A stretch of 64,000 nucleotides of DNA, taken from the IMG/VR virus record IMGVR_UViG_3300029362_000002. One strand, given 5' to 3'. How positions within the stretch are numbered: position 1 is the stretch's first letter; the number at the start of each line of letters is the position of its first letter. The translations under genes and the position numbers were made by a program. Below the pieces are notes generated by a model that saw only the letters and a program-made list of their open reading frames with translations, was not told the DNA's origin and made no database searches. Below are positions 17,000 to 64,000 of the stretch, in pieces. This DNA comes from a virus.

Positions 17000-18745
17000 A
17001 TGGCATTTTTGATAAGACCGCCAGGTCAAGTGAAAAAGGCGAAAGCAAAGCTGAAACCAAAGTCAAAGAATGCTCAGGAGATTCTAAACAGGCTGCAGGG
17101 TTTCTTGAACCAGAATACCAGCGAACCAGTAGAAATCCTCTGCAGCTTTTGGGAAGACCAAAGAAATGCCATCACCTATAAAGAACTGAGGGAAGTAGTG
17201 CAAAGCGGTATGCTCACACAGAAGCAGTTCGAGGATTGGCAGCAAGATTATTCAGTCCTGGTTGAGAAAAAGATGGCAGGTGTATGGATGTCTGCAATGG
17301 CGGCAGGCGTTGCCGGTCAGCCGATGTTTGATAGCTTATCATTCAGCATCAATACGCAGGACCCTGGAATTGTATCGTGGATCAAAGACAGGGGAGCTGA
17401 ATTTGTGACATCGTGTACAGCAGAGCAGAAAAAGGCCATCCAGTCGTTGTTGGTAAAGAAGATCACAGATCAGCACACGGTTGACGAACTGGCAAGATTC
17501 ATTCGCCCATGTATAGGCCTTACAGACGGTGACACAAAAGCGGCATTGAAGCTGTACGATACCGTAAAGGCCACATTGCAAACTAATCATCCACGAATGA
17601 AGCCGGAAAACATCCGGAAGAAGGCACTGGATGCGGCACAGAAGTACGCAGAGCAGAAACATCGGCAGAGAGCTTTCACTATAGCTCAGACAGAACTGGA
17701 ATTTGCGTACAACCGAGGAGCCGACCAAGGAGTAAGACAGGCACAGTCCCAAGGCCTTATAGGAAAGACAATCAAGAGATGGATCACATCCGGAGATGAT
17801 TCGGTATGTTCCATTTGCGCTGCATTAGACGGTACCGAAATCGAGATGGATGATAATTTCGATTTTAAGGGCCGTCTTTTGTTTGCCGGTCAGAAAATGC
17901 TACCGCCGGCACATCCACGTTGTGCTTGTGCTGTTGAGTACATTGAGGTTGAGCCACCTGTATTTCGACCGGAAAACATGACGGAGATCGAAACAGAAGC
18001 AGGTTTGGAAGAGTTGAAGGAACTTTCGTCTGGAGAAGCGGCTGAGGAGTATTTTGGAAAGCGGCCAGACAGATCGTTGCGGAGAAGTAACCGGGAAGAA
18101 TATGACAGGCAACTGGATTATTTCAAAACTCAGTCACCGTATGGAAAGTGGAGCCAGCAGACAACATCACAGGAAGAGGCATCAATTACAAATTACTGCG
18201 GACCAGATTACAGTGCGATTAATGGACTGCTGAGAAGAGAAATGACAGAAAACCAGGTTAAGTTGTGGGATGATCTCGGCAACCGTAAAATTTCAGAGAT
18301 GATTTCGGATATCAGTTCTGCCATATCAAAGTTTGATCTTCCAGAGGACATTAAAGTATTCAGAACTTGTGAGAATGATGTTCTGGAGAAACTGCAGACA
18401 AAGATCGGTAGCACATTCCATGACGATGGTTTTGTCAGCACATCTGTTGTCCGGGAGAAGCAGGCAAGCGGAAATATCTTCATGGAGATAAGCGTTCCTA
18501 AAGGGCAAGGTGTAGGAGCCTGGGTAAATCCATTGTCCGGGAAACCAGAAGAGTATGAATTTCTGCTGAACAGAGGGACTGATTTTCTGGTGACTGACAT
18601 AGGCCAGGACGGAGCGGACACAATAATCCGAATGAAAGTTACTGGCAGAACAGAAACGGAATGGTCGTATGCAACGAAGGAAGAGGTGATAGAGCAATGG
18701 AAACGAAGAGGAGTTTACAGCGAAGAAAGCGCAAAACTTCTATGA
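17000..18745 (+). CDS. Mu F / SPP1 gp7-like minor head protein fused to a C-terminal ADP-ribosyltransferase (C3/VIP2-like) domain
   Basis: N-terminal domain: WITSGDDSVCSICAALDG ... PPAHPRCACAVEY. C-terminal domain: YCGPDYSAINGLLR, VFR (Arg), FVSTSV (STS), EEYEFLL (ExE). Confidence 0.75.
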   Translation: MAFLIRPPGQVKKAKAKLKPKSKNAQEILNRLQGFLNQNTSEPVEILCSFWEDQRNAITYKELREVVQSGMLTQKQFEDWQQDYSVLVEKKMAGVWMSAMAAGVAGQPMFDSLSFSINTQDPGIVSWIKDRGAEFVTSCTAEQKKAIQSLLVKKITDQHTVDELARFIRPCIGLTDGDTKAALKLYDTVKATLQTNHPRMKPENIRKKALDAAQKYAEQKHRQRAFTIAQTELEFAYNRGADQGVRQAQSQGLIGKTIKRWITSGDDSVCSICAALDGTEIEMDDNFDFKGRLLFAGQKMLPPAHPRCACAVEYIEVEPPVFRPENMTEIETEAGLEELKELSSGEAAEEYFGKRPDRSLRRSNREEYDRQLDYFKTQSPYGKWSQQTTSQEEASITNYCGPDYSAINGLLRREMTENQVKLWDDLGNRKISEMISDISSAISKFDLPEDIKVFRTCENDVLEKLQTKIGSTFHDDGFVSTSVVREKQASGNIFMEISVPKGQGVGAWVNPLSGKPEEYEFLLNRGTDFLVTDIGQDGADTIIRMKVTGRTETEWSYATKEEVIEQWKRRGVYSEESAKLL

Positions 18746-44294: not shown

Positions 44295-44447
44295 ATGGGG
44301 AATGTAGCAAAAATCGTAGTGGGGGTGCTTGCCATAGGCGGCACCTTTTTCATTCTGTTAATCAGAGAATTTGGGAAATTTATTGACGAAGTTTCACCCT
44401 ACAACTGGGGAGAAAGCGAGGTGCTGAAAGATGAGTATAAACGTTGA
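44295..44447 (+). CDS. Hypothetical 50-aa single-TM protein
   Basis: The ATG at 44295 follows AGAGGAG. Overlaps the lysin start. Confidence 0.35.
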   Translation: MGNVAKIVVGVLAIGGTFFILLIREFGKFIDEVSPYNWGESEVLKDEYKR

Positions 44448-46086
44448 GGCGGAGAAAAGAGCCTATAAGAAATTCAGACAGGCCGGCATGACTGCAGCTG
44501 GGGCTTGCGGCCTGATCGGAAACCTGGAAGCGGAGAGTGATGGTTTCTACACAAACCGGGTTGAATACCTGTGCCTTAAACGGCTGAAAGAAAAGGGAAA
44601 AGTCTATACCCATGCCACCTATACTGCAGCGATCGACAGCGGAAAGATCTCCTGCGAGGAGTTCTTACATCCGCTTTCCGGAAAACAGTACGGGTACGGA
44701 TTGGCCCAGTGGACAAGCCCTGGCAGAAAATCTGGTCTTTGGAATTTTGCCAAGCAGAGAGGCGTGTCCATTGCGGACGAAGATATGCAGCTGGATTTCT
44801 TACTGAAGGAACTGAGAGAAAGCTACAGCCCGGTTTTGGCTATTCTCAAATCAGCAACAACAATCCGGCAGGCATCCGATGTTGTTTTAAAGAAGTTTGA
44901 AATTCCGGCCAACACAGGGGAAAGCGTATGCGAAAGTAGAGCGGCAAGAGGCCAGAAATTCTATAACGATTATGCAAAGGAGGAAAAAATTGTGAGCGTG
45001 AAAATTAGTAATTGTGGACATGATGAAAATGGACGTTATGCAGGAGGCCAGGCGGGCGATCAGACTGGTACAGAGTATCAGATCATCAACTGGTACAACA
45101 GACCTTGGCTCTGTGTTTTACGATTTGAGGACCAGGAAGTAGCGGCACTGATTGCAGAGATGGCAACACAGGCCGCAAACAATAATATGATCGGCTATGA
45201 CCAGGGAACTGCAGGGAATAGTAATGATCGCTATACCTTCTGGGAGCAGCTGGCCGCAAATGGTTATGATCCATCAAAAATCAAAAAGCCATGCGAAACA
45301 GACTGCAGCCAGAGTACCGCAAGCATCGTGAAAGCAGTCGGATACCGTCTGAATAAGCCGAAGATGAAAGCAGTTAGCGTTTACTTGACTACATATAACA
45401 TGAGAAGCGCATTCAAGACAGCGGGAGCAAAGGTTCTCACCGATCAGAAATATCTGACAAGCGGTACATGCTTAAAGCCTGGAGATATCCTGCTGAATGA
45501 CAATCATCATGTGGCTATCGCAGTGAGTGGAGATGCCAGTTCCAATGCAACTCCGGCAAAGAAGAATTATTTGGAAAAGGGAGATACCGGATCAGAAGTA
45601 ACCGCGATGCAGAAAATGCTTATCAAAGTTGGATATTCTTGCGGAGCCGCAGGAGCTGACGGAGATTTCGGCTCTGACACTGATTCAGCTCTTCGCAAAT
45701 TTCAGAAAGACAATGGGCTGACGGTTGATGGACAGTATGGAACTAATTCCAAAGCCAAGCTGACCGCTCTGTACAACAAAAAGGTTGGAACCACCACATC
45801 CAACAAGAAAGACGTAACGACAGTAGCCAAAGAGGTGATTGCCGGTAAATGGGGTAGCGGAGATGAGCGGAAAAAGAAGCTGACTGCGGCCGGCTATAAT
45901 TATGACACTGTTCAGAAGAAGGTGAATGAGCTGCTGAAGACAAGAACAAAGAAATCCGTAGCTGAAGTTGCAAAGGAAGTCGTTTCCGGAAAATGGGGGA
46001 ACGGAGCCGATCGGAAGAAAAAACTGGAAGCAGCCGGTTACAATTATGCCGAAGTCCAGAAAGAAGTAAACAAGCTACTGAAATAA
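44431..46086 (+). CDS. Multidomain endolysin (lysozyme-like N-domain, second hydrolase-like domain, PG_binding_1-like domain, two CW_7 repeats)
   Basis: N-terminal CGLIGNLEAESDGF pattern. Central GHDENGRYAGGQAGDQTGTEY. GDTGSEVTAMQKML...DGDFG PG-binding motif. Two copies of VAKEVIxGKWGxGxxRKKKLxAAGYNYxxVQKxVNxLL. Confidence 0.8.
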   Translation: MSINVEAEKRAYKKFRQAGMTAAGACGLIGNLEAESDGFYTNRVEYLCLKRLKEKGKVYTHATYTAAIDSGKISCEEFLHPLSGKQYGYGLAQWTSPGRKSGLWNFAKQRGVSIADEDMQLDFLLKELRESYSPVLAILKSATTIRQASDVVLKKFEIPANTGESVCESRAARGQKFYNDYAKEEKIVSVKISNCGHDENGRYAGGQAGDQTGTEYQIINWYNRPWLCVLRFEDQEVAALIAEMATQAANNNMIGYDQGTAGNSNDRYTFWEQLAANGYDPSKIKKPCETDCSQSTASIVKAVGYRLNKPKMKAVSVYLTTYNMRSAFKTAGAKVLTDQKYLTSGTCLKPGDILLNDNHHVAIAVSGDASSNATPAKKNYLEKGDTGSEVTAMQKMLIKVGYSCGAAGADGDFGSDTDSALRKFQKDNGLTVDGQYGTNSKAKLTALYNKKVGTTTSNKKDVTTVAKEVIAGKWGSGDERKKKLTAAGYNYDTVQKKVNELLKTRTKKSVAEVAKEVVSGKWGNGADRKKKLEAAGYNYAEVQKEVNKLLK

Positions 46087-46146: not shown

Positions 46147-46177
46147 GCCCTGGTCCTTCGGGACTGGGGCATTTTTT
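46147..46177 (+). terminator. Rho-independent terminator after the endolysin
   Basis: GCCCTGGTCC-TTCG-GGACTGGGGC followed by ATTTTTT. Confidence 0.7.
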
Positions 46178-46450
46178 ATTGCAAAATGCGGAACAAGTTA
46201 GAGGTAAAAATCAATATACAAAATAACTAAAATTTCAATGCTATTTTTGACGAAATGTGCCTGAGCAACGATAGAGATTTTTTCAATACCTAATATACCT
46301 AAAGGCAAAAATTCGGTATAGGGGCGTGTACGAGCGTATAGCCCTATATGCTTTTTTCGGGGAAATGCTTGTGGTTCCGGTAGATAATTTGTGAAAAATA
46401 TGATATTCTTAAAGAGCTGCCGAACCTCCAGCAGAAAGGAGGTGAAATCA

Positions 46451-46543
46451 TTGGATAAAATAATCGCCATTATTCTTGTCCCTGTCGCAGTAAATGTAAT
46501 TAGCTACTACATTTGCAAATGGCTGGACAGAAAAGACAAATAG
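46451..46543 (+). CDS. Type I toxin candidate (Fst/PepA1-like 30-aa hydrophobic peptide)
   Basis: The TTG start lies 8 nt after AAAGGAGGTGA. Peptide is MDKIIAIILVPVAVNVISYYICKWLDRKDK. An upstream ACCTCC (46424-46429) can pair with the GGAGGT of the RBS. Confidence 0.55.
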   Translation: MDKIIAIILVPVAVNVISYYICKWLDRKDK

Positions 46544-46584
46544 GCAGCATAGCAGCCTAAGGCATAAGCCACCTACATAACGGA

Positions 46585-46660
46585 ATAGAAAACCCCAGAG
46601 ATCTGATCCATCTCCGGGGTTTTCGTTTTGCTCATTGGATAATCGCCATTACCCTTAGCT
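46585..46660 (-). ncRNA. Candidate antitoxin sRNA, convergent with the toxin gene
   Basis: Minus-strand promoter TTGACT (46695-46690), 17-nt spacer, TATACT (46672-46667). The transcript would contain the complement of TCATTGGAT and AATCGCCATTA, which also occur across the toxin start codon (46448-46472), and would end at the shared terminator. Confidence 0.5.
46589..46623. terminator. Bidirectional terminator shared by the toxin mRNA and the convergent antisense RNA
   Basis: AAAACCCCAGAGAT-CTGATCC-ATCTCCGGGGTTTT, with A/T runs on both sides. Confidence 0.65.
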
Positions 46661-46724
46661 GTTTTCAGTATATGCGTATCAGACAAAAAAGTCAACCAGT
46701 AATTCCAATGTTCGTAAAATCGAG

Positions 46725-46742: not shown

Positions 46743-46974
46743 CTCAGTTGAGGATAAGATACAAATGCGCAAAGCCTTATAAATAAAGGAAAATCTTCAT
46801 ATTATAATAAAAAACGTGTGACATTGTCCCATCAATGTCACGAAACCGTCACGTCACTATTACTCTATATCTATTTCTGTATCTAAATCTTTTTCTATCT
46901 TTTTCTTTTATTCTCACTATTAGTTATTGAATGTTGCAGTTGCGAAAATAATTTGCATAAATAGAGCAAAACTA

Positions 46975-47003
46975 TTGACAAATACGCAAGTGCGAGTTAT
47001 AAT
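46975..47003 (+). promoter_or_regulatory. Early promoter P1 (TTGACA-17-TATAAT) with a CGCAAGTGCGAG 12-mer in the spacer
   Basis: Consensus -35 and -10 elements. Lies inside a 61-bp perfect repeat (46961-47021 = 52976-53036). Confidence 0.7.
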
Positions 47004-60988: not shown

Positions 60989-61011
60989 GCCGCAACCACA
61001 AGGGTTACGGC
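60989..61011 (-). terminator. Terminator hairpin overlapping the integrase stop codon
   Basis: GCCGCAACC-ACAAG-GGTTACGGC (one mismatch). On the minus strand it is followed by CTTTTCTTTTCC. Confidence 0.55.
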
Positions 61012-62153
61012 ATTTTTTCTATCTCGGCTCTGAGCCATTCAATATCACGGATTGTATAGACCGCCTCGGTTACGTCTGTGATCTTGTGACCGGCAAGACG
61101 TTTCACAACGTACTCATCTACGCCCGCCTTTTTCGCCATCGTAATGAATGTTGTTCGGGGATCATGCGGCCGATGTTCGGAACGAAGGTGCAGTGCGGCA
61201 ACGACCTTGTTAAAGCGCCCAGCGTATTTGTCATAGGTTATTCTCATACCGCCCTTGGCAGCCTCCGGATCATTAAAGAGGCGGTCACTTCCAAGAGAAA
61301 CTGCTTCGTCATAATTTCTTTTTACCAGGTCCCGAATACGAGTGTGGATCGGGACGGTACGGTGCTTGCCAGCCTCGGTCTTCATACCGCCGGTAATACA
61401 CCACTTTTCCAAGTCAACGTCTTTTAATTCCAAGAGCCCCATTTCTTGGGGACGCCATCCCATATAACACTGTATAAGCAACCAGTCGGCGAATTTAATG
61501 TTGCCAACAGTATTCCAAAGGGCTTCCATCTCAGAATCATTGAAGTTAATATGGCCACGCTTTGCATCTTCCTTTTCTTTGATGATGTCATTTGAAAGCT
61601 CAAAGGTACGAGCATAGTTTTTCGAGACAAGATCATATTCCATGGCATAGTCCAGCATTAGGTTGAACATGGATTTTATTCTGGATTTCGTTCCCGGAGA
61701 TGCAGGCACTTTAGCCCCGGCGTCCTTGCCCCGGTTTTGAATTACATATCCGTCTTCCATGATTCCTTTTATGTGTCGAGCACGCAGATCCTTTACACGC
61801 ATCCCCTGTATGGCGTGGCAATATCTCCAGGCAGCAATGATTGTCCTGGAAGAAGAATCACTTTCGAGGGTAGGAAAGTAAGCTGCCGTCCATCTTTCGT
61901 AAAGCTCGGCCAAGGTCATGTTATCGTTCTGAATGTCGTAGGGATTAGCTCCGTACTCAGCTAAAGCCTGCAGAGCATCTTTTTTAGTCTTAAAGGTTCC
62001 GATAGGAACTCTGTTCTGTACTGCTTTTCCGGTTTCTTCATTTATGACCCAGCCGAGGGTTACTCTGGCCAGATATGGCTTACGCCGGTTTCCGGATAAT
62101 TTAGTTACGCTTCCATAACCGTTCGGTAATTTCAATAGATCATCTCCTGTCAC
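61005..62153 (-). CDS. int: Tyrosine recombinase (phage integrase)
   Basis: C-terminal catalytic pattern: R..., HRPHDPRTTF, LAGH, VYTIRD. N-terminal SAM-like domain. 382 aa. Confidence 0.85.
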   Translation of the reverse strand: MTGDDLLKLPNGYGSVTKLSGNRRKPYLARVTLGWVINEETGKAVQNRVPIGTFKTKKDALQALAEYGANPYDIQNDNMTLAELYERWTAAYFPTLESDSSSRTIIAAWRYCHAIQGMRVKDLRARHIKGIMEDGYVIQNRGKDAGAKVPASPGTKSRIKSMFNLMLDYAMEYDLVSKNYARTFELSNDIIKEKEDAKRGHINFNDSEMEALWNTVGNIKFADWLLIQCYMGWRPQEMGLLELKDVDLEKWCITGGMKTEAGKHRTVPIHTRIRDLVKRNYDEAVSLGSDRLFNDPEAAKGGMRITYDKYAGRFNKVVAALHLRSEHRPHDPRTTFITMAKKAGVDEYVVKRLAGHKITDVTEAVYTIRDIEWLRAEIEKMP

Positions 62154-63069: not shown

Positions 63070-63459
63070 TCAGCCGGATAATCTTTTCCCTTCGTCAACG
63101 TATTTCTTTGAGTCCTCGACAGCACGCAAGAAGCCCTTAATTTCTCCCATAAATTCATATTGTTTGCTCATGGGAAGTTCATGGAATAAATCCAAAAGTT
63201 CTTCGTCCATTGCGGAAAGCTTCGGCTCTTGAACCTCTGGCTGTTCTATGACAGCAGGACGCTCTTGACCGGTCAGGAGATAATCCAGCGAAACGCAAAG
63301 AAAATTTGCAATGGCCGGCATATAGCGAGCCGGAGGATCTTTCTTCCTGGTTTTCCATGTAGACATAGTAGATGTTTGGATATCGAGAACCTTGCACAAT
63401 TCTATGGCCGTTTTATCACGCTCTGCGAGTAAATCGGATATGCGTTCAATGATTTCCAT
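63070..63459 (-). CDS. XRE/CI-like phage repressor
   Basis: The ATG at 63459 follows GGAGGTGTCTA. HTH segment KTAIELCKVLDIQTSTMSTWKTRK. The ORF-track extension to 63693 runs through the promoter region. Confidence 0.75.
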   Translation of the reverse strand: MEIIERISDLLAERDKTAIELCKVLDIQTSTMSTWKTRKKDPPARYMPAIANFLCVSLDYLLTGQERPAVIEQPEVQEPKLSAMDEELLDLFHELPMSKQYEFMGEIKGFLRAVEDSKKYVDEGKRLSG

Positions 63460-63505
63460 TAGACACCTCCAAGTGTAAAAATATACGCAAATACGAGGTA
63501 AAATC

Positions 63506-63534
63506 TTTACAAATACGCAGATTCGTACTATAAT
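63506..63534 (+). promoter_or_regulatory. Early promoter P3 (TTTACA-17-TATAAT) facing the cro-like gene
   Basis: Same layout as P1 and P2. The spacer AATACGCAGATTCGTAC is related to the P1/P2 spacer AATACGCAAGTGCGAGT. Confidence 0.6.
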
Positions 63535-63687
63535 ATAACCATGAAACAAATTATTATTCGTGGTTGCGAGCCTATGATTTAAAATCTGTTTCATGGTGAT
63601 TGCGTGTTCGTAATAACTCGTATTTGTATTATAGCACGCACTCGGGAAAAATGCAAATGCGAATCGCAGATGCAAGAAAGGAGATCG

Positions 63688-64000
63688 ATGCAAATGAGCA
63701 ATACTACTGTCCCCATTTCTGAATGGTGCAAGGAAATAAGAGTTGCGCTTGCGAGGAAGGAAATGAACCTTCAGAGTGTAGCTGATGAAATCGGCTACAG
63801 CTATACAACGATAACAGCCCTTATCAGCGGCCGGATCGTAAAGGATAATTACCTGGATATCGCAAAGAAAATTAACGAAGTTCTGGAAGTGAACGTGCTT
63901 CCGGAAAAGCCGCAGCTTCCGTCCGATGAATGGTGTGGAGCAGTGCGAGCAAAACTGTATGTAAAAAAAATGAACATCAGCGAGCTGAGCAAGTCCATCG
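63688..64000 (+). CDS. Cro/antirepressor-like protein with two tandem HTH-like repeats, 3' end cut by the window edge
   Basis: AAAGGAG RBS; ATG at 63688 or 63694. EWCKEIRVALARKEMNLQSVADEIGYSYTTITALISGR is followed by a second EWCGAVRAKLYVKKMNISELSKSI segment. No stop codon before the window ends. Confidence 0.55.
   Translation, partial: MQMSNTTVPISEWCKEIRVALARKEMNLQSVADEIGYSYTTITALISGRIVKDNYLDIAKKINEVLEVNVLPEKPQLPSDEWCGAVRAKLYVKKMNISELSKSI

What the first reader, a model, noticed from the sequence alone, without database searches (positions are those of the whole stretch)
46401..46695. Fst/par-like type I toxin-antitoxin module in the post-lysin intergenic island
Seen in the sequence:
1. A 30-aa ORF (46451..46543, TTG start) encodes MDKIIAIILVPVAVNVISYYICKWLDRKDK. 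It has a hydrophobic helix and a charged tail, similar in pattern to Fst and PepA1 (..IAP.....SYWL..R..K). Its RBS AAAGGAGGTGA is very strong.
2. ACCTCC at 46424-46429 can pair with the GGAGGT of the RBS, giving a structure that would sequester the SD.
3. A bidirectional terminator lies at 46589-46623.
4. On the minus strand there is a near-consensus promoter: TTGACT, 17-nt spacer, TATACT (46695-46667). It would drive a ~75-nt RNA into that terminator.
5. That RNA carries the complements of two direct-repeat blocks, TCATTGGAT and AATCGCCATTA (46632-46651). The same blocks span the toxin start codon (46448-46472).

This is the same logic as the pAD1 par locus (RNA I/RNA II), with direct repeats at the 5' ends and convergent transcription.

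Inference: this is a phage-borne addiction or abortive-infection-type module. A possible extended -10 for the toxin mRNA (TGATATTCT at 46401-46409) is only tentative.
Basis: partly seen in the sequence, partly recalled or inferred. Interest (0 to 1): 0.65.

Follow-up and report, generated by a model that had tools for sequence, protein, structure and literature searches.

The report
Fst/par-type toxin–antisense RNA module
A ~310-bp cassette just after the lysis genes of a temperate gut-bacterium phage has every sequence hallmark of the well-known Fst/par "small membrane toxin plus antisense RNA antidote" system. It is an ordinary member of a known kind, though it belongs to a very large, mostly unannotated clade.

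Summary
They are also far beyond chance: the two-part repeat occurs exactly twice in 64 kb, with 0 expected.

About 110 related loci were collected from gut phage contigs, Lachnospiraceae genomes and plasmids. They show the same ~310-bp cassette:
- an extended −10 promoter;
- a 5' end that pairs with the sequence just after the stop codon;
- a hairpin that sequesters the Shine-Dalgarno sequence;
- a 27–31-aa peptide (consensus MxExxxxFLVSVxAGVVSYYICKWLDRxx);
- a bidirectional terminator;
- a convergent TTGAC(T/A)-17-TAnnAT promoter, driving a ~76-nt antisense RNA whose 5' end repeats the toxin's start-codon region.

The repeats differ in sequence between loci but always match within a locus. 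Of 22 intermolecular pairs, 19 carry compensatory changes, and 90% of cells are paired against about 42% in slid controls. A real E. faecalis par locus has the same layout.

Curated Fst HMMs do not reach threshold (≤12 bits against a cutoff of 26). Profile–profile comparison with Fst/PepA1 gives 93.7% probability.

Verdict: a genuine par-like type I toxin–antitoxin module and a new member of a known family. Its biological role (prophage addiction or abortive infection) is untested.

The parts
46386..46697 (.). Whole cassette: the block of homology shared with dozens of otherwise unrelated loci
   Evidence: In most loci, local blastn homology to the window starts at about 46380-46416 and ends at about 46629-46698. 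It does not extend into the flanks.
46401..46409 (+). Extended -10 promoter of the toxin mRNA (TGATATTCT). Predicted transcription start about 46416.
   Evidence: TGnTAnnnT is present in 63/68 unique loci, at a fixed distance from the SD in 55. There is no canonical -35, and the simple promoter scan does not list it.
46416..46630 (+). Predicted toxin mRNA (RNA I analogue), about 215 nt
   Evidence: RNAfold gives -68.7 kcal/mol with z -4.96 against shuffles. There is a full-length sub-threshold Rfam match to SpF66_sRNA at 46416-46635 (34 bits, gathering score 42, E 4.9e-6). The ends are inferred, not measured.
46416..46421 (+). 5'-terminal GCUGCC, which pairs with GGCAGC at 46543-46548 (analogue of par 5'-UH)
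   Evidence: The helix is present in the MFE fold and in the alifold consensus of 63 RNAs. One pair covaries: CG 42 / UA 12 / UG 6. C. perfringens has GCUACC/GGUAGC. The real par locus has GCGGCAGC at the 5' end and GCTGC after the stop codon.
46424..46444 (+). 5' stem-loop: anti-SD ACCTCC (46424-46429) paired with SD GGAGGT (46439-46444)
   Evidence: Formed. It is invariant in Lachnospiraceae loci, including those retrieved through the coding sequence only. Distant relatives show compensatory variants: CCCCC/GGGGG in C. perfringens and CTCTTTCC/GGAAGGAG in L027/L054.
46448..46458 (+). DRa (TCATTGGATAA), containing the TTG start codon
   Evidence: Identical copy at 46632-46642. In the family this helix has 7 of 8 pairs with compensatory changes.
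46451..46543 (+). Toxin ORF, 30 aa: MDKIIAIILVPVAVNVISYYICKWLDRKDK
   Evidence: ORF list. The ORF is intact in 72 of 78 related loci by the script's count; one of the six flagged (L106) is in fact intact. The synonymous share of codon differences is 35% in frame, against 22% and 10% in the other frames. 1798 (90%-identity clusters) and 1412 (50%-identity clusters) database relatives were found. hhalign against Fst/PepA1 gives 93.7%.
46460..46477 (+). DRb (ATAATCGCCATTATTCTT), codons 4-9
   Evidence: The copy at 46639-46656 is 16/18 identical, and both differences are wobble-compatible. In the family this helix is 95.3% paired, with 12 of 14 pairs carrying compensatory changes.
46588..46624 (.). 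Bidirectional intrinsic terminator shared by both RNAs. The loop CUGAUCC contains a YUNR (CUGA) on the toxin strand.
   Evidence: Inverted repeat. Hairpin on both strands. The stem covaries across the family. YUNR is present in 30 of 68 loci.
46632..46656 (+). DRa' and DRb': second copies of the repeats, transcribed only on the minus strand
   Evidence: These copies are locus-specific in all relatives.
46583..46660 (-). Predicted antitoxin RNA (RNA II analogue), about 76-78 nt. Its 5' part is complementary to 46448-46477 and its 3' part is the terminator hairpin.
   Evidence: Fold -34.9 kcal/mol, z -6.43. Duplex with the toxin translation-initiation region -34.7 kcal/mol. The ends are inferred from the promoter and terminator.
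46667..46695 (-). Promoter of the antisense RNA: TTGACT-17-TATACT
   Evidence: 10/12. All 68 unique modules kept for analysis carry TTGAC(A/T)-16/18-TAnnnT at this position (kept because they do). Of the 11 other intact-ORF loci, 1 ends at the contig edge and 4 have a TTGATT -35 variant; L027/L030/L035/L054 share a TTTACA-17-TATATT promoter (seen in L027 and L054); L088 has lost the region. par RNA II has TTGACC-17-TATACT.

Best explanation
This is a par-like (Fst/Ldr superfamily) type I toxin-antitoxin cassette carried as a moron by a temperate Lachnospiraceae phage.

**Components (inferred from sequence).**
- An extended -10 promoter makes a ~215-nt mRNA for a 30-aa membrane peptide: a hydrophobic helix, an invariant Trp, and a charged tail.
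- The mRNA is held translationally silent by a hairpin pairing the SD with an upstream ACCUCC.
- The mRNA is probably stabilised by a helix that ties its extreme 5' end to the sequence just after the stop codon.
- From the opposite side, a strong promoter makes a ~76-nt antisense RNA that ends at the same bidirectional terminator.

**Proposed mechanism.**
- The 5' ~30 nt of the antisense RNA pair in trans with the two repeat blocks that straddle the toxin start codon, blocking initiation.
- The complementary terminator hairpins give a third contact.
- While the cassette is present and transcribed, the antisense RNA keeps the toxin off.
- If transcription stops or the element is lost, the shorter-lived antidote decays and the peptide is made, damaging the membrane.

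**Shown here:** the sequence elements, their conservation, and the covariation of the RNA-RNA and intramolecular pairings.

**Inferred:** transcription, the relative RNA stabilities, peptide toxicity, and the biological pay-off. My ranking of pay-offs is prophage or cassette stabilisation as most likely, and abortive infection or exclusion of other phages as possible.
For: **The window itself.**
- All elements are present at the stated coordinates.
- The bipartite repeat occurs twice, with 0 expected.

**Related loci.** 23 + 50 viral loci and 53 genome loci share the cassette.

**The repeats covary as an RNA-RNA interaction.**
- Repeats are locus-specific but always matched within a locus.
- 19 of 22 intermolecular pairs carry compensatory changes.
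- 90.4% of cells are paired, against 67.7% in shuffles and about 42% in slid controls. The covariation score is 0.639 against 0.216 and about 0.13.
- Cognate duplexes average -37.5 kcal/mol against -18.1 for non-cognate. The cognate is the best partner in 44 of 62 cases.
- Where the two repeat copies differ, differences are wobble-compatible 108 times against 16 reverse transitions. This points to selection on RNA pairing, not on DNA identity.

**Intramolecular structure.** The 5'-end helix, the SD hairpin and the terminator are in the consensus fold, with covariation.

**Coding signal and ORF integrity**.

**Comparison with known par.**
- A genuine par locus fetched from an E. faecalis plasmid shows the same order, spacing and promoter type.
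- The peptide meets the published Fst/Ldr signature: Trp between the TM helix and the charged tail, and P/S-xxx-G in the family (PMC7472228; alignment).
- hhalign against Fst/PepA1 gives 93.7%, gap-free, aligning S/P11, G15 and W24.

**Context and indirect support.**
- The window is a temperate phage, with portal, endolysin, integrase and repressor.
- Toxin-inactivating lesions in relatives fit a gene that is costly when unregulated: three deletions between the repeats and one internal deletion.
Against: - There are no expression, stability or toxicity data.
- Curated models do not accept the peptide. NF033608 gives ≤12 bits against a cutoff of 26, while Fst scores 34.7 and PepA1 58.3. PF13955 gives no hit.
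- A profile search of PDB sequences did not retrieve Fst or PepA1.
- hhalign statistics are optimistic for short hydrophobic peptides.
- The window's own peptide has PVAVN rather than PxxxG. Mutagenesis of Fst found the Gly essential for toxicity (PMC7472228), so this copy could be attenuated.
- The start codon is TTG.
- Part of the antisense 5' region is predicted to fold on itself.
- The U-turn motif is present in only 30 of 68 loci.
- Co-evolution of two nearby direct repeats could in principle be helped by gene conversion. The wobble asymmetry argues against this as the sole cause.
Confidence: 0.87

Rival explanations
1. The peptide is an accessory of the phage lysis cassette (a holin, antiholin or pinholin-like timer). 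The antisense RNA only tunes lysis timing. It is not an autonomous toxin-antitoxin unit.
For: The module sits directly after the holin-like genes and the endolysin, and does so in related phage contigs L005, L008 and L025 as well. Weak sub-threshold hits go to holin families: PF16083 in 14 of 31 members (best E 0.0099), and phrog_6918.
Against: - The module has its own promoter. It is separated from the endolysin by a strong terminator at 46147-46170.
- The ~310-bp block is found without lysis genes: between pfk and dnaE in the Blautia caecimuris chromosome, and on plasmids of L. salivarius, C. perfringens, Waltera and M. gnavus.
- The closest phage relatives (L002, L009) have lost it, while neighbouring sequence on both sides is retained.
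Confidence: 0.04
2. It is an antisense-regulated small membrane protein that is not toxic. It could be, for example, a superinfection-exclusion or membrane-modulating moron expressed from the prophage.
For: The window copy lacks the Gly of PxxxG that is essential for Fst toxicity. Chromosomal Fst homologues have unclear, possibly non-lethal roles (PMC7472228).
Against: - Three layers of translational repression are conserved and covary: the SD hairpin, antisense pairing over the start codon, and sequestration of the 5' end. This degree of repression is typical of a product that must be kept off.
- Toxin-specific deletions recur in relatives.
- There is homology to toxins with demonstrated toxicity.
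Confidence: 0.07
3. It belongs with the Clostridioides difficile prophage type I toxins (NF047374 / phrog_738) rather than with Fst/par.
For: NF047374 is the most frequent weak NCBIfam hit: 23 of 31 members, with a best score of 17.7-24.6 bits. phrog_738 gives E values down to 1.4e-5.
Against: - Scores are far below the cutoff of 60 and cover only profile positions 1-18 of 51, which is the TM helix.
- The C. difficile toxins are 50-53 aa and are regulated by long, fully overlapping convergent antisense RNAs, not by trans-pairing direct repeats (PMC6563280).
- The present architecture matches par point for point.
Confidence: 0.02

Closest known systems
par locus of Enterococcus faecalis plasmid pAD1 and its homologues (Fst toxin, RNA I / RNA II)
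   Same: The order and logic match, as seen in a real par locus (L116) and as described in PMC7472228:
- an extended -10 toxin promoter;
- a 5' end paired to the sequence just after the stop codon (5'-UH);
- an SD-sequestering 5' stem-loop;
- DRa and DRb straddling the start codon;
- a peptide of about 30 aa with a TM helix and a charged tail;
- a bidirectional terminator;
- second copies of DRa/DRb;
- a convergent TTGACx-17-TATACT promoter.

The repeats are poorly conserved between loci, as reported for par.
   Different: - The peptide sequence is only distantly similar: 21% identity in hhalign, and below the curated HMM cutoffs.
- The family motif is S/P-xxx-G ... YYICKWLD, and the window copy has PxxxN.
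- The host clade is Clostridia (Lachnospiraceae) and the carrier is a temperate phage.
- The Rfam models that recognise enterococcal RNA I and RNA II (RefB11, RefA9) do not match the window.
Rfam RF02442 SpF66_sRNA (Streptococcus)
   Same: It is the best Rfam match to the toxin mRNA. The match is full length (model 1-239) and on the toxin strand, in the window and in three relatives at 27.7-37.4 bits. The model consensus contains an ORF for MSLILELVLTIIADVIAGIILYFVCKWLDG..., which has DxxxG and CKWLD and is clearly related to this family. That peptide scores 18.3 bits on the Fst model.
   Different: All matches are below the gathering score of 42. SpF66 is catalogued as an sRNA, not as a toxin mRNA. 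I found no paper on it in the library.
SprA1/SprA1AS (PepA1) of Staphylococcus aureus and Fst-Sm/srSm of Streptococcus mutans
   Same: These are Fst-family type I modules on mobile or chromosomal DNA, with convergent antisense RNAs that act on the translation-initiation region (PMC7472228, PMC3543317). PepA1 and the window peptide share the same spacing from the Pro to the Trp-Leu.
   Different: The sequence clade and the hosts differ. PepA1 carries the staphylococcal PxxxGC motif.
Clostridioides difficile prophage type I TA modules (CD2517.1-RCd8 and others)
   Same: These are small membrane toxins with antisense RNA antidotes, carried by prophages of a gut clostridial species. There is weak similarity in the N-terminal TM region.
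   Different: The toxins are 50-53 aa. The antisense overlap is long and contiguous rather than using direct repeats plus a shared terminator.

Membership tests
Fst/Ldr superfamily toxin (signature of Weaver 2020, PMC7472228) | A small peptide with a hydrophobic TM helix, a conserved Trp, then a highly charged C-terminus | tested here: met
   The window peptide reads ...ISYYICKW-LDRKDK. The Trp is invariant in 31 of 31 aligned family peptides, and the tail is charged. The definition is quoted.
Fst/Ldr superfamily toxin (signature of Weaver 2020) | A P/D/S/T-xxx-G motif inside the TM helix | tested here: inconclusive
   The family consensus SVxAG satisfies SxxxG (S11 in at least 90% of aligned peptides; G15 the majority residue). 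The window copy and its subclade have PVAVN or PIVAN: the Pro is kept and the Gly is replaced by Asn.
Fst family (curated HMMs NF033608 and PF13955) | Score at or above the curated cutoff (26 bits and 36 bits respectively) | tested here: not met
   The window peptide gives no hit. Family members score at most about 12 bits on NF033608, and 4 of 31 match at all. Positive controls: Fst 34.7, PepA1 58.3 and E. casseliflavus Fst 47.4 bits. Fst and PepA1 themselves fail the PF13955 cutoff.
Fst family (remote homology) | Profile-profile similarity to bona fide Fst toxins | tested here: met
   hhalign of A1 against A5 (Fst, two enterococcal Fst homologues, PepA1) gives probability 93.7% and E 1.9e-7. 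It aligns 29 gap-free columns, matching S/P11 with P11, G15 with G15 and W24 with W/V. Caveat: these are short hydrophobic sequences.
par-like locus organisation | Convergent promoters with a shared bidirectional intrinsic terminator | tested here: met
   for the window. Conserved across the family. This is sequence-level evidence only; no transcripts were measured.
par-like locus organisation | Direct repeats DRa/DRb over the toxin translation-initiation region, repeated in the antitoxin RNA | tested here: met
   for the window. Covariation across 40-62 loci.
par-like locus organisation | A 5' stem-loop that sequesters the SD | tested here: met
   ACCUCC pairs with GGAGGU. Compensatory variants occur in distant relatives.
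par-like locus organisation | An intramolecular helix that sequesters the extreme 5' end of the toxin RNA (5'-UH) | tested here: met
   46416-46421 pairs with 46543-46548. Covariation is CG 42 / UA 12 / UG 6. The same arrangement is seen in L116 and L117. The transcription start is predicted, not mapped.
par-like locus organisation | A YUNR U-turn in the terminator loop of the toxin RNA | tested here: met
   The window loop is CUGAUCC and contains CUGA. Only 30 of 68 family loci have such a motif. The review states that not all par homologues have one.
Type I toxin-antitoxin system (functional definition) | The peptide is toxic when expressed, and the antisense RNA neutralises it | not testable with these tools
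   Experiments are needed; see the next steps.
Rfam RF02442 SpF66_sRNA | Bit score at or above the gathering score of 42 | tested here: not met
   34.0 bits, E 4.9e-6, full-length match at 46416-46635 on the + strand. Relatives score 27.7-37.4 bits.
Rfam RF02844 RefA9 / RF02848 RefB11 (enterococcal par RNA II / RNA I) | A match to the covariance models | tested here: not met
   There is no match in the window even at E ≤ 10. In the real par locus L116, RefA9 scores 84.4 bits (gathering score 49) and RefB11 53.3 bits (gathering score 54).
C. difficile type I toxins (NF047374) | Score at or above 60 bits; toxin of 50-53 aa; long overlapping antisense RNA | tested here: not met
   Scores are at most 24.6 bits and cover only profile positions 1-18. 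The peptides are 27-31 aa. Pairing is mediated by repeats (for the C. difficile layout).

The most novel reading that the evidence does not exclude
The hypervariable DRa/DRb blocks may act as an address code under diversifying selection. Many mutually insulated copies of one toxin could then coexist in a single Lachnospiraceae genome and its prophages. Up to four copies per genome were seen, and the cognate antisense RNA was always the best partner.

Each phage-borne copy would then work as an element-specific addiction or phage-versus-phage exclusion device in the gut. The same repeats would also provide a built-in, recurrent route to toxin loss through recombination (L002, L009, L010).
Probability: 0.3. 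Interest if true: 0.5.

Novelty: new member of a known kind. Interest (0 to 1): 0.3.

Why it matters
**Annotation.**
- This clade of Fst-type toxins is very large: 1798 clusters at 90% identity and 1412 at 50%.
- It is common in human-gut Lachnospiraceae, their phages and some plasmids.
- The listed database entries are almost all unnamed or called 'hypothetical protein'. Two are named 'SCIMP protein', and the curated Fst models miss the clade.
- Recognising the cassette would improve annotation of gut phage and bacterial genomes.
- It would also flag a likely membrane-active peptide in mobile elements of abundant commensals.

**Experimental use.** The covariation dataset is a clean natural experiment on the specificity of antisense-toxin pairing.

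**Concept.** It adds little new. par-like loci on phages and in Clostridiales were already reported in general terms (PMC7472228, PMC2887945).

Tried and rejected
- **Pfam and NCBIfam scans of the window peptide and 31 relatives** gave only sub-threshold hits to SCIMP, holins, Ldr, the C. difficile toxin and Fst.
- **A profile search of PDB sequences** did not find Fst or PepA1.
- **The 50-aa GTG-started ORF (46391-46543)** was rejected because its start lies upstream of the conserved promoter.
It was re-run with a 40-aa family member placed first.
It was re-run with database ids. The top 150 hits were all close family, so the search did not bridge to Fst.
- **The look-up of encoding contigs** found no record of the exact window peptide and refuses 29-aa peptides.
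- **A search with the annotated 45-aa Fst** returned only close enterococcal relatives, so the Fst comparison profile (A5) is narrow.
- **Two literature searches for 'SpF66'** returned only malaria-vaccine papers.
- **The simple terminator scan** did not report the module's terminator. Folding does show it.
- **The 90-aa minus-strand ORF at 46198-46470** was considered and rejected. It spans the conserved promoter and the 5' UTR, and the homology block begins only at about 46386.
Full report
**1. The observation**

- **ORF.** The TTG-started ORF 46451-46543 encodes MDKIIAIILVPVAVNVISYYICKWLDRKDK. It sits 6 nt after GGAGGT, within AAAGGAGGTGA at 46436-46446.
- **Anti-SD.** ACCTCC at 46424-46429 is complementary to the SD.
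- **Terminator.** A 15-nt inverted repeat at 46588-46602 / 46610-46624 is flanked by A-runs and T-runs. It folds as a terminator hairpin on both strands.
- **Minus-strand promoter.** TTGACT-17-TATACT (46695-46667) matches 10 of 12 consensus positions.
- **Repeats.** The start-codon region is repeated after the terminator: 46448-46458 = 46632-46642, and 46460-46477 ≈ 46639-46656.
- **Chance.** The bipartite pattern occurs exactly twice in the 64-kb window, with none in 100 shuffles. The predicted duplex between the translation-initiation region and the first ~40 nt of the antisense RNA is -34.7 kcal/mol, against -13.7 ± 3.3 for shuffles.

**2. Context**

The window is a temperate phage. It carries a portal, head morphogenesis genes, a 551-aa endolysin (44431-46086), an integrase (61005-62153, minus strand) and a repressor-like gene (63070-63693, minus strand). 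The cassette lies between the endolysin terminator (46147-46170) and a consensus promoter at 46975-47003. This is a typical moron position.

**3. Relatives**

Sources of related loci:
- A distant blastn hit in a human faecal phage contig (L001) showed the same layout with different repeat sequences.
- A pattern on the 5' UTR found 23 IMG/VR loci.
- A pattern on the coding region found 50 IMG/VR loci.
- The 5' UTR pattern found 53 loci in representative genomes. Almost all are Lachnospiraceae (Blautia, Enterocloster, Lacrimispora, Anaerobutyricum, Fusicatenibacter and others), often with several copies per genome.

What the relatives show:
- **Peptides.** They are 27-31 aa with consensus MxExxxxFLVSVxAGVVSYYICKWLDRxx and an invariant Trp.
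- **Family size.** Database searches give 1798 clusters at 90% identity and 1412 at 50%. The listed ones are almost all unnamed, and none has a Pfam domain.
- **Discrete cassette.** In most loci, homology to the window is confined to about 46386-46697, from the toxin promoter to the antisense promoter. The module is therefore a discrete cassette of about 310 bp.
- **Other locations.** It also occurs in the core chromosome, between pfk and dnaE in Blautia caecimuris. It is found on plasmids of Ligilactobacillus salivarius, Clostridium perfringens, Waltera, Mediterraneibacter and others.

**4. Evidence that the RNA-RNA interaction is real**

- In every locus, the block around the start codon (DRa) and codons about 4-9 (DRb) reappear after the terminator. 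The sequence is locus-specific.
- I aligned the translation-initiation region, a linker and the antisense 5' end for 40 distinct loci. RNAalifold predicts 22 intermolecular pairs, of which 19 show compensatory double changes.
- With explicit controls, 90.4% of cells are paired, against 67.7% in shuffles and about 42% when the partner is slid. The covariation score is 0.639, against 0.216 and about 0.13.
- Cognate duplexes average -37.5 kcal/mol against -18.1 for non-cognate pairs. The cognate antisense is the best partner for 44 of 62 toxins and within the top four for all.
- The cognate is also the best partner within genomes carrying several copies, although some cross-pairing potential exists.
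- Where the two repeat copies differ, the differences are wobble-compatible (T>C, G>A) 108 times, against 16 for the reverse transitions. This asymmetry is expected from selection on pairing between these two particular strands. Maintenance of DNA repeat identity alone would not produce it.
- These counts are not corrected for phylogeny.

**5. Intramolecular structure of the toxin mRNA**

- The MFE fold of the window RNA (z = -4.96) and the consensus fold of 63 family RNAs share three features:
  - the SD hairpin;
  - the terminator, with abundant covariation;
  - a helix between the extreme 5' end (GCUGCC, 46416-46421) and GGCAGC overlapping the stop codon (46543-46548). One of its pairs covaries: CG 42, UA 12, UG 6.
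- The extended -10 (TGnTAnnnT) is present in 63 of 68 unique loci at a fixed distance. This places the transcription start at about 46416, so the helix would sequester the very 5' end.
- Distant relatives carry compensated versions. C. perfringens has SD GGGGG with anti-SD CCCCC, and GCUACC with GGUAGC. L027 and L054 have a different anti-SD that still pairs.

**6. Evidence that the ORF is translated**

- By the script's count, 72 of 78 loci carrying the 5' UTR have an intact ORF; one of the six flagged (L106) is in fact intact.
- Among loci retrieved without using the coding sequence, entropy is lowest at codon position 2 and highest at position 3.
- The synonymous share of codon differences is 35% in frame, against 22% and 10% in the other frames.

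**7. Comparison with what is known**

- Weaver's review (PMC7472228) defines the Fst/Ldr signature and the par layout.
  - Signature: a Trp between the TM helix and the charged tail, usually with P/D/S/T-xxx-G.
  - Layout: convergent promoters, a bidirectional terminator, DRa/DRb, a 5'-SL, a 5'-UH, and an optional U-turn.
- I fetched a real par locus from an E. faecalis plasmid, annotated 'Fst family toxin'. It shows the same order:
  - an extended -10;
  - 5' GCGGCAGC paired to GCTGC just after the stop codon;
  - anti-SD and SD;
  - DRa GTGTTATTT and DRb GATTTAATGTCGTT, both repeated after the terminator;
  - an RNA II promoter TTGACC-17-TATACT.
- All of these features are met in the window.
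- At the protein level the picture is mixed.
  - Curated HMMs do not reach threshold: at most 12 bits against a cutoff of 26, with Fst, PepA1 and an E. casseliflavus Fst passing as controls.
  - hhalign against an Fst/PepA1 alignment gives 93.7% probability over 29 gap-free columns. It aligns the S/P, G and W positions.
- The best Rfam match to the toxin mRNA is SpF66_sRNA: full length, 34 bits, gathering score 42. Relatives score 27.7-37.4 bits. Its consensus encodes a DxxxG...CKWLD peptide that scores 18.3 bits on the Fst model, so it is an intermediate.
- The enterococcal par RNA models (RefA9, RefB11) match L116 but not the window.
- The C. difficile type I toxins give the most frequent weak NCBIfam hit. 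That hit covers only the TM helix, the toxins are 50-53 aa, and they use long overlapping antisense RNAs.
- Fozo et al. [quoted passage not shown] Weaver notes par homologues on phages.

**8. Mechanism and its status**

- **Shown:** the elements, their conservation, and the covariation of three sets of pairings.
- **Inferred from the par paradigm:**
  - the antisense RNA blocks initiation by pairing over the start codon;
  - the SD hairpin delays translation of nascent or free mRNA;
  - the 5' helix stabilises the mRNA relative to the antisense RNA;
  - loss of transcription frees the toxin.
- **Not addressed:** whether the benefit to the phage is prophage stabilisation or abortive infection / exclusion.
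- One caveat applies to this particular copy. Its motif is PVAVN, whereas the Gly of PxxxG is essential in Fst. The subclade carrying Asn nevertheless retains all the regulatory elements (L004, L005, L067, L087).

**9. Verdict**

This is a new member of a known kind, belonging to a large and poorly annotated clade. Interest is modest.

Noticed in passing
L002:4713-4800, L009 (minus strand, about 6174), L010 (minus strand, about 6155); corresponds to window 46446-46652: Three phage contigs keep the toxin promoter, the 5' UTR and the antisense promoter but lack the toxin ORF and the terminator. Two of them (L002, L009) are the closest relatives of the window's phage. The junction lies exactly within DRa/DRb, so recombination between the direct repeats deletes the toxin.
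   Followed up: partly
L077:6104-6300; L078:1104-1300: L077 has an internal deletion that joins the start codon to the ATGGCTGGA of the KWLD codons. This removes the TM helix while the antisense region stays intact. L078 has the otherwise invariant Trp replaced by Arg (CKRLD). Both are possible inactivated toxins.
   Followed up: no
L088 (minus strand, module at about 122-430): In this Blautia MAG copy, the terminator, DRa'/DRb' and the antisense -10 are missing; the sequence jumps from ...CGAGCAA to AAAAAGTCAAC. The usual toxin -10 is replaced by a hairpin. This is either a decayed locus or an assembly artefact.
   Followed up: no
window 46367-46376 (GGTAGATAAT); same position in most relatives (consensus GTAGAATA, about 20 nt upstream of the toxin -10): A conserved block lies upstream of the toxin promoter. 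It resembles a second TGnTAGAAT-type extended -10, or it could be an operator. It may give a longer toxin transcript or a regulatory input.
   Followed up: no
window 46317-46357 (+): A terminator-like hairpin (TATAGGGGC ... GCCCTATA followed by TGCTTTTTT) lies between the endolysin terminator and the cassette. It sits inside a stretch (46183-46445) that is about 80% conserved in L002 and L009. It may be the end of another small transcript.
   Followed up: no
window 46818-46841 and 46975-47003: A perfect 9-bp inverted repeat (GTGACATTG/CAATGTCAC) with nearby GTCAC repeats is followed by a 12/12 consensus sigma-70 promoter. This looks like an operator-promoter region for the next transcription unit.
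   Followed up: no
L110:6001-6096: A family member in Blautia caecimuris lies in the core chromosome, between phosphofructokinase and dnaE. UniRef names it a type I Fst-family toxin, although the curated HMM scores of family members are below threshold.
   Followed up: partly
Rfam RF02442 (alignment): The consensus of the 'Streptococcus sRNA SpF66' model contains an SD and an ORF for an Fst-like peptide (MSLILELVLTIIADVIAGIILYFVCKWLDG...). This Rfam 'sRNA' is probably a type I toxin mRNA.
   Followed up: partly
L115:401-481, L117:401-484 and other PLSDB hits: Unannotated homologues with their own matched repeats occur on plasmids of L. salivarius and C. perfringens. The tblastn search also hit plasmids of Waltera, M. 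gnavus, Enterococcus (41 records), Aerococcus and Streptococcus.
   Followed up: partly
window 17000-18745 (+): The head-morphogenesis protein carries a C-terminal region (residues about 379-545) that matches ADP-ribosyltransferase toxin PHROGs (phrog_3895, phrog_802).
   Followed up: no
P0121, P0122: Two database proteins of 100 and 78 aa match the toxin profile twice. They may be tandem toxin copies read through by gene callers.
   Followed up: no
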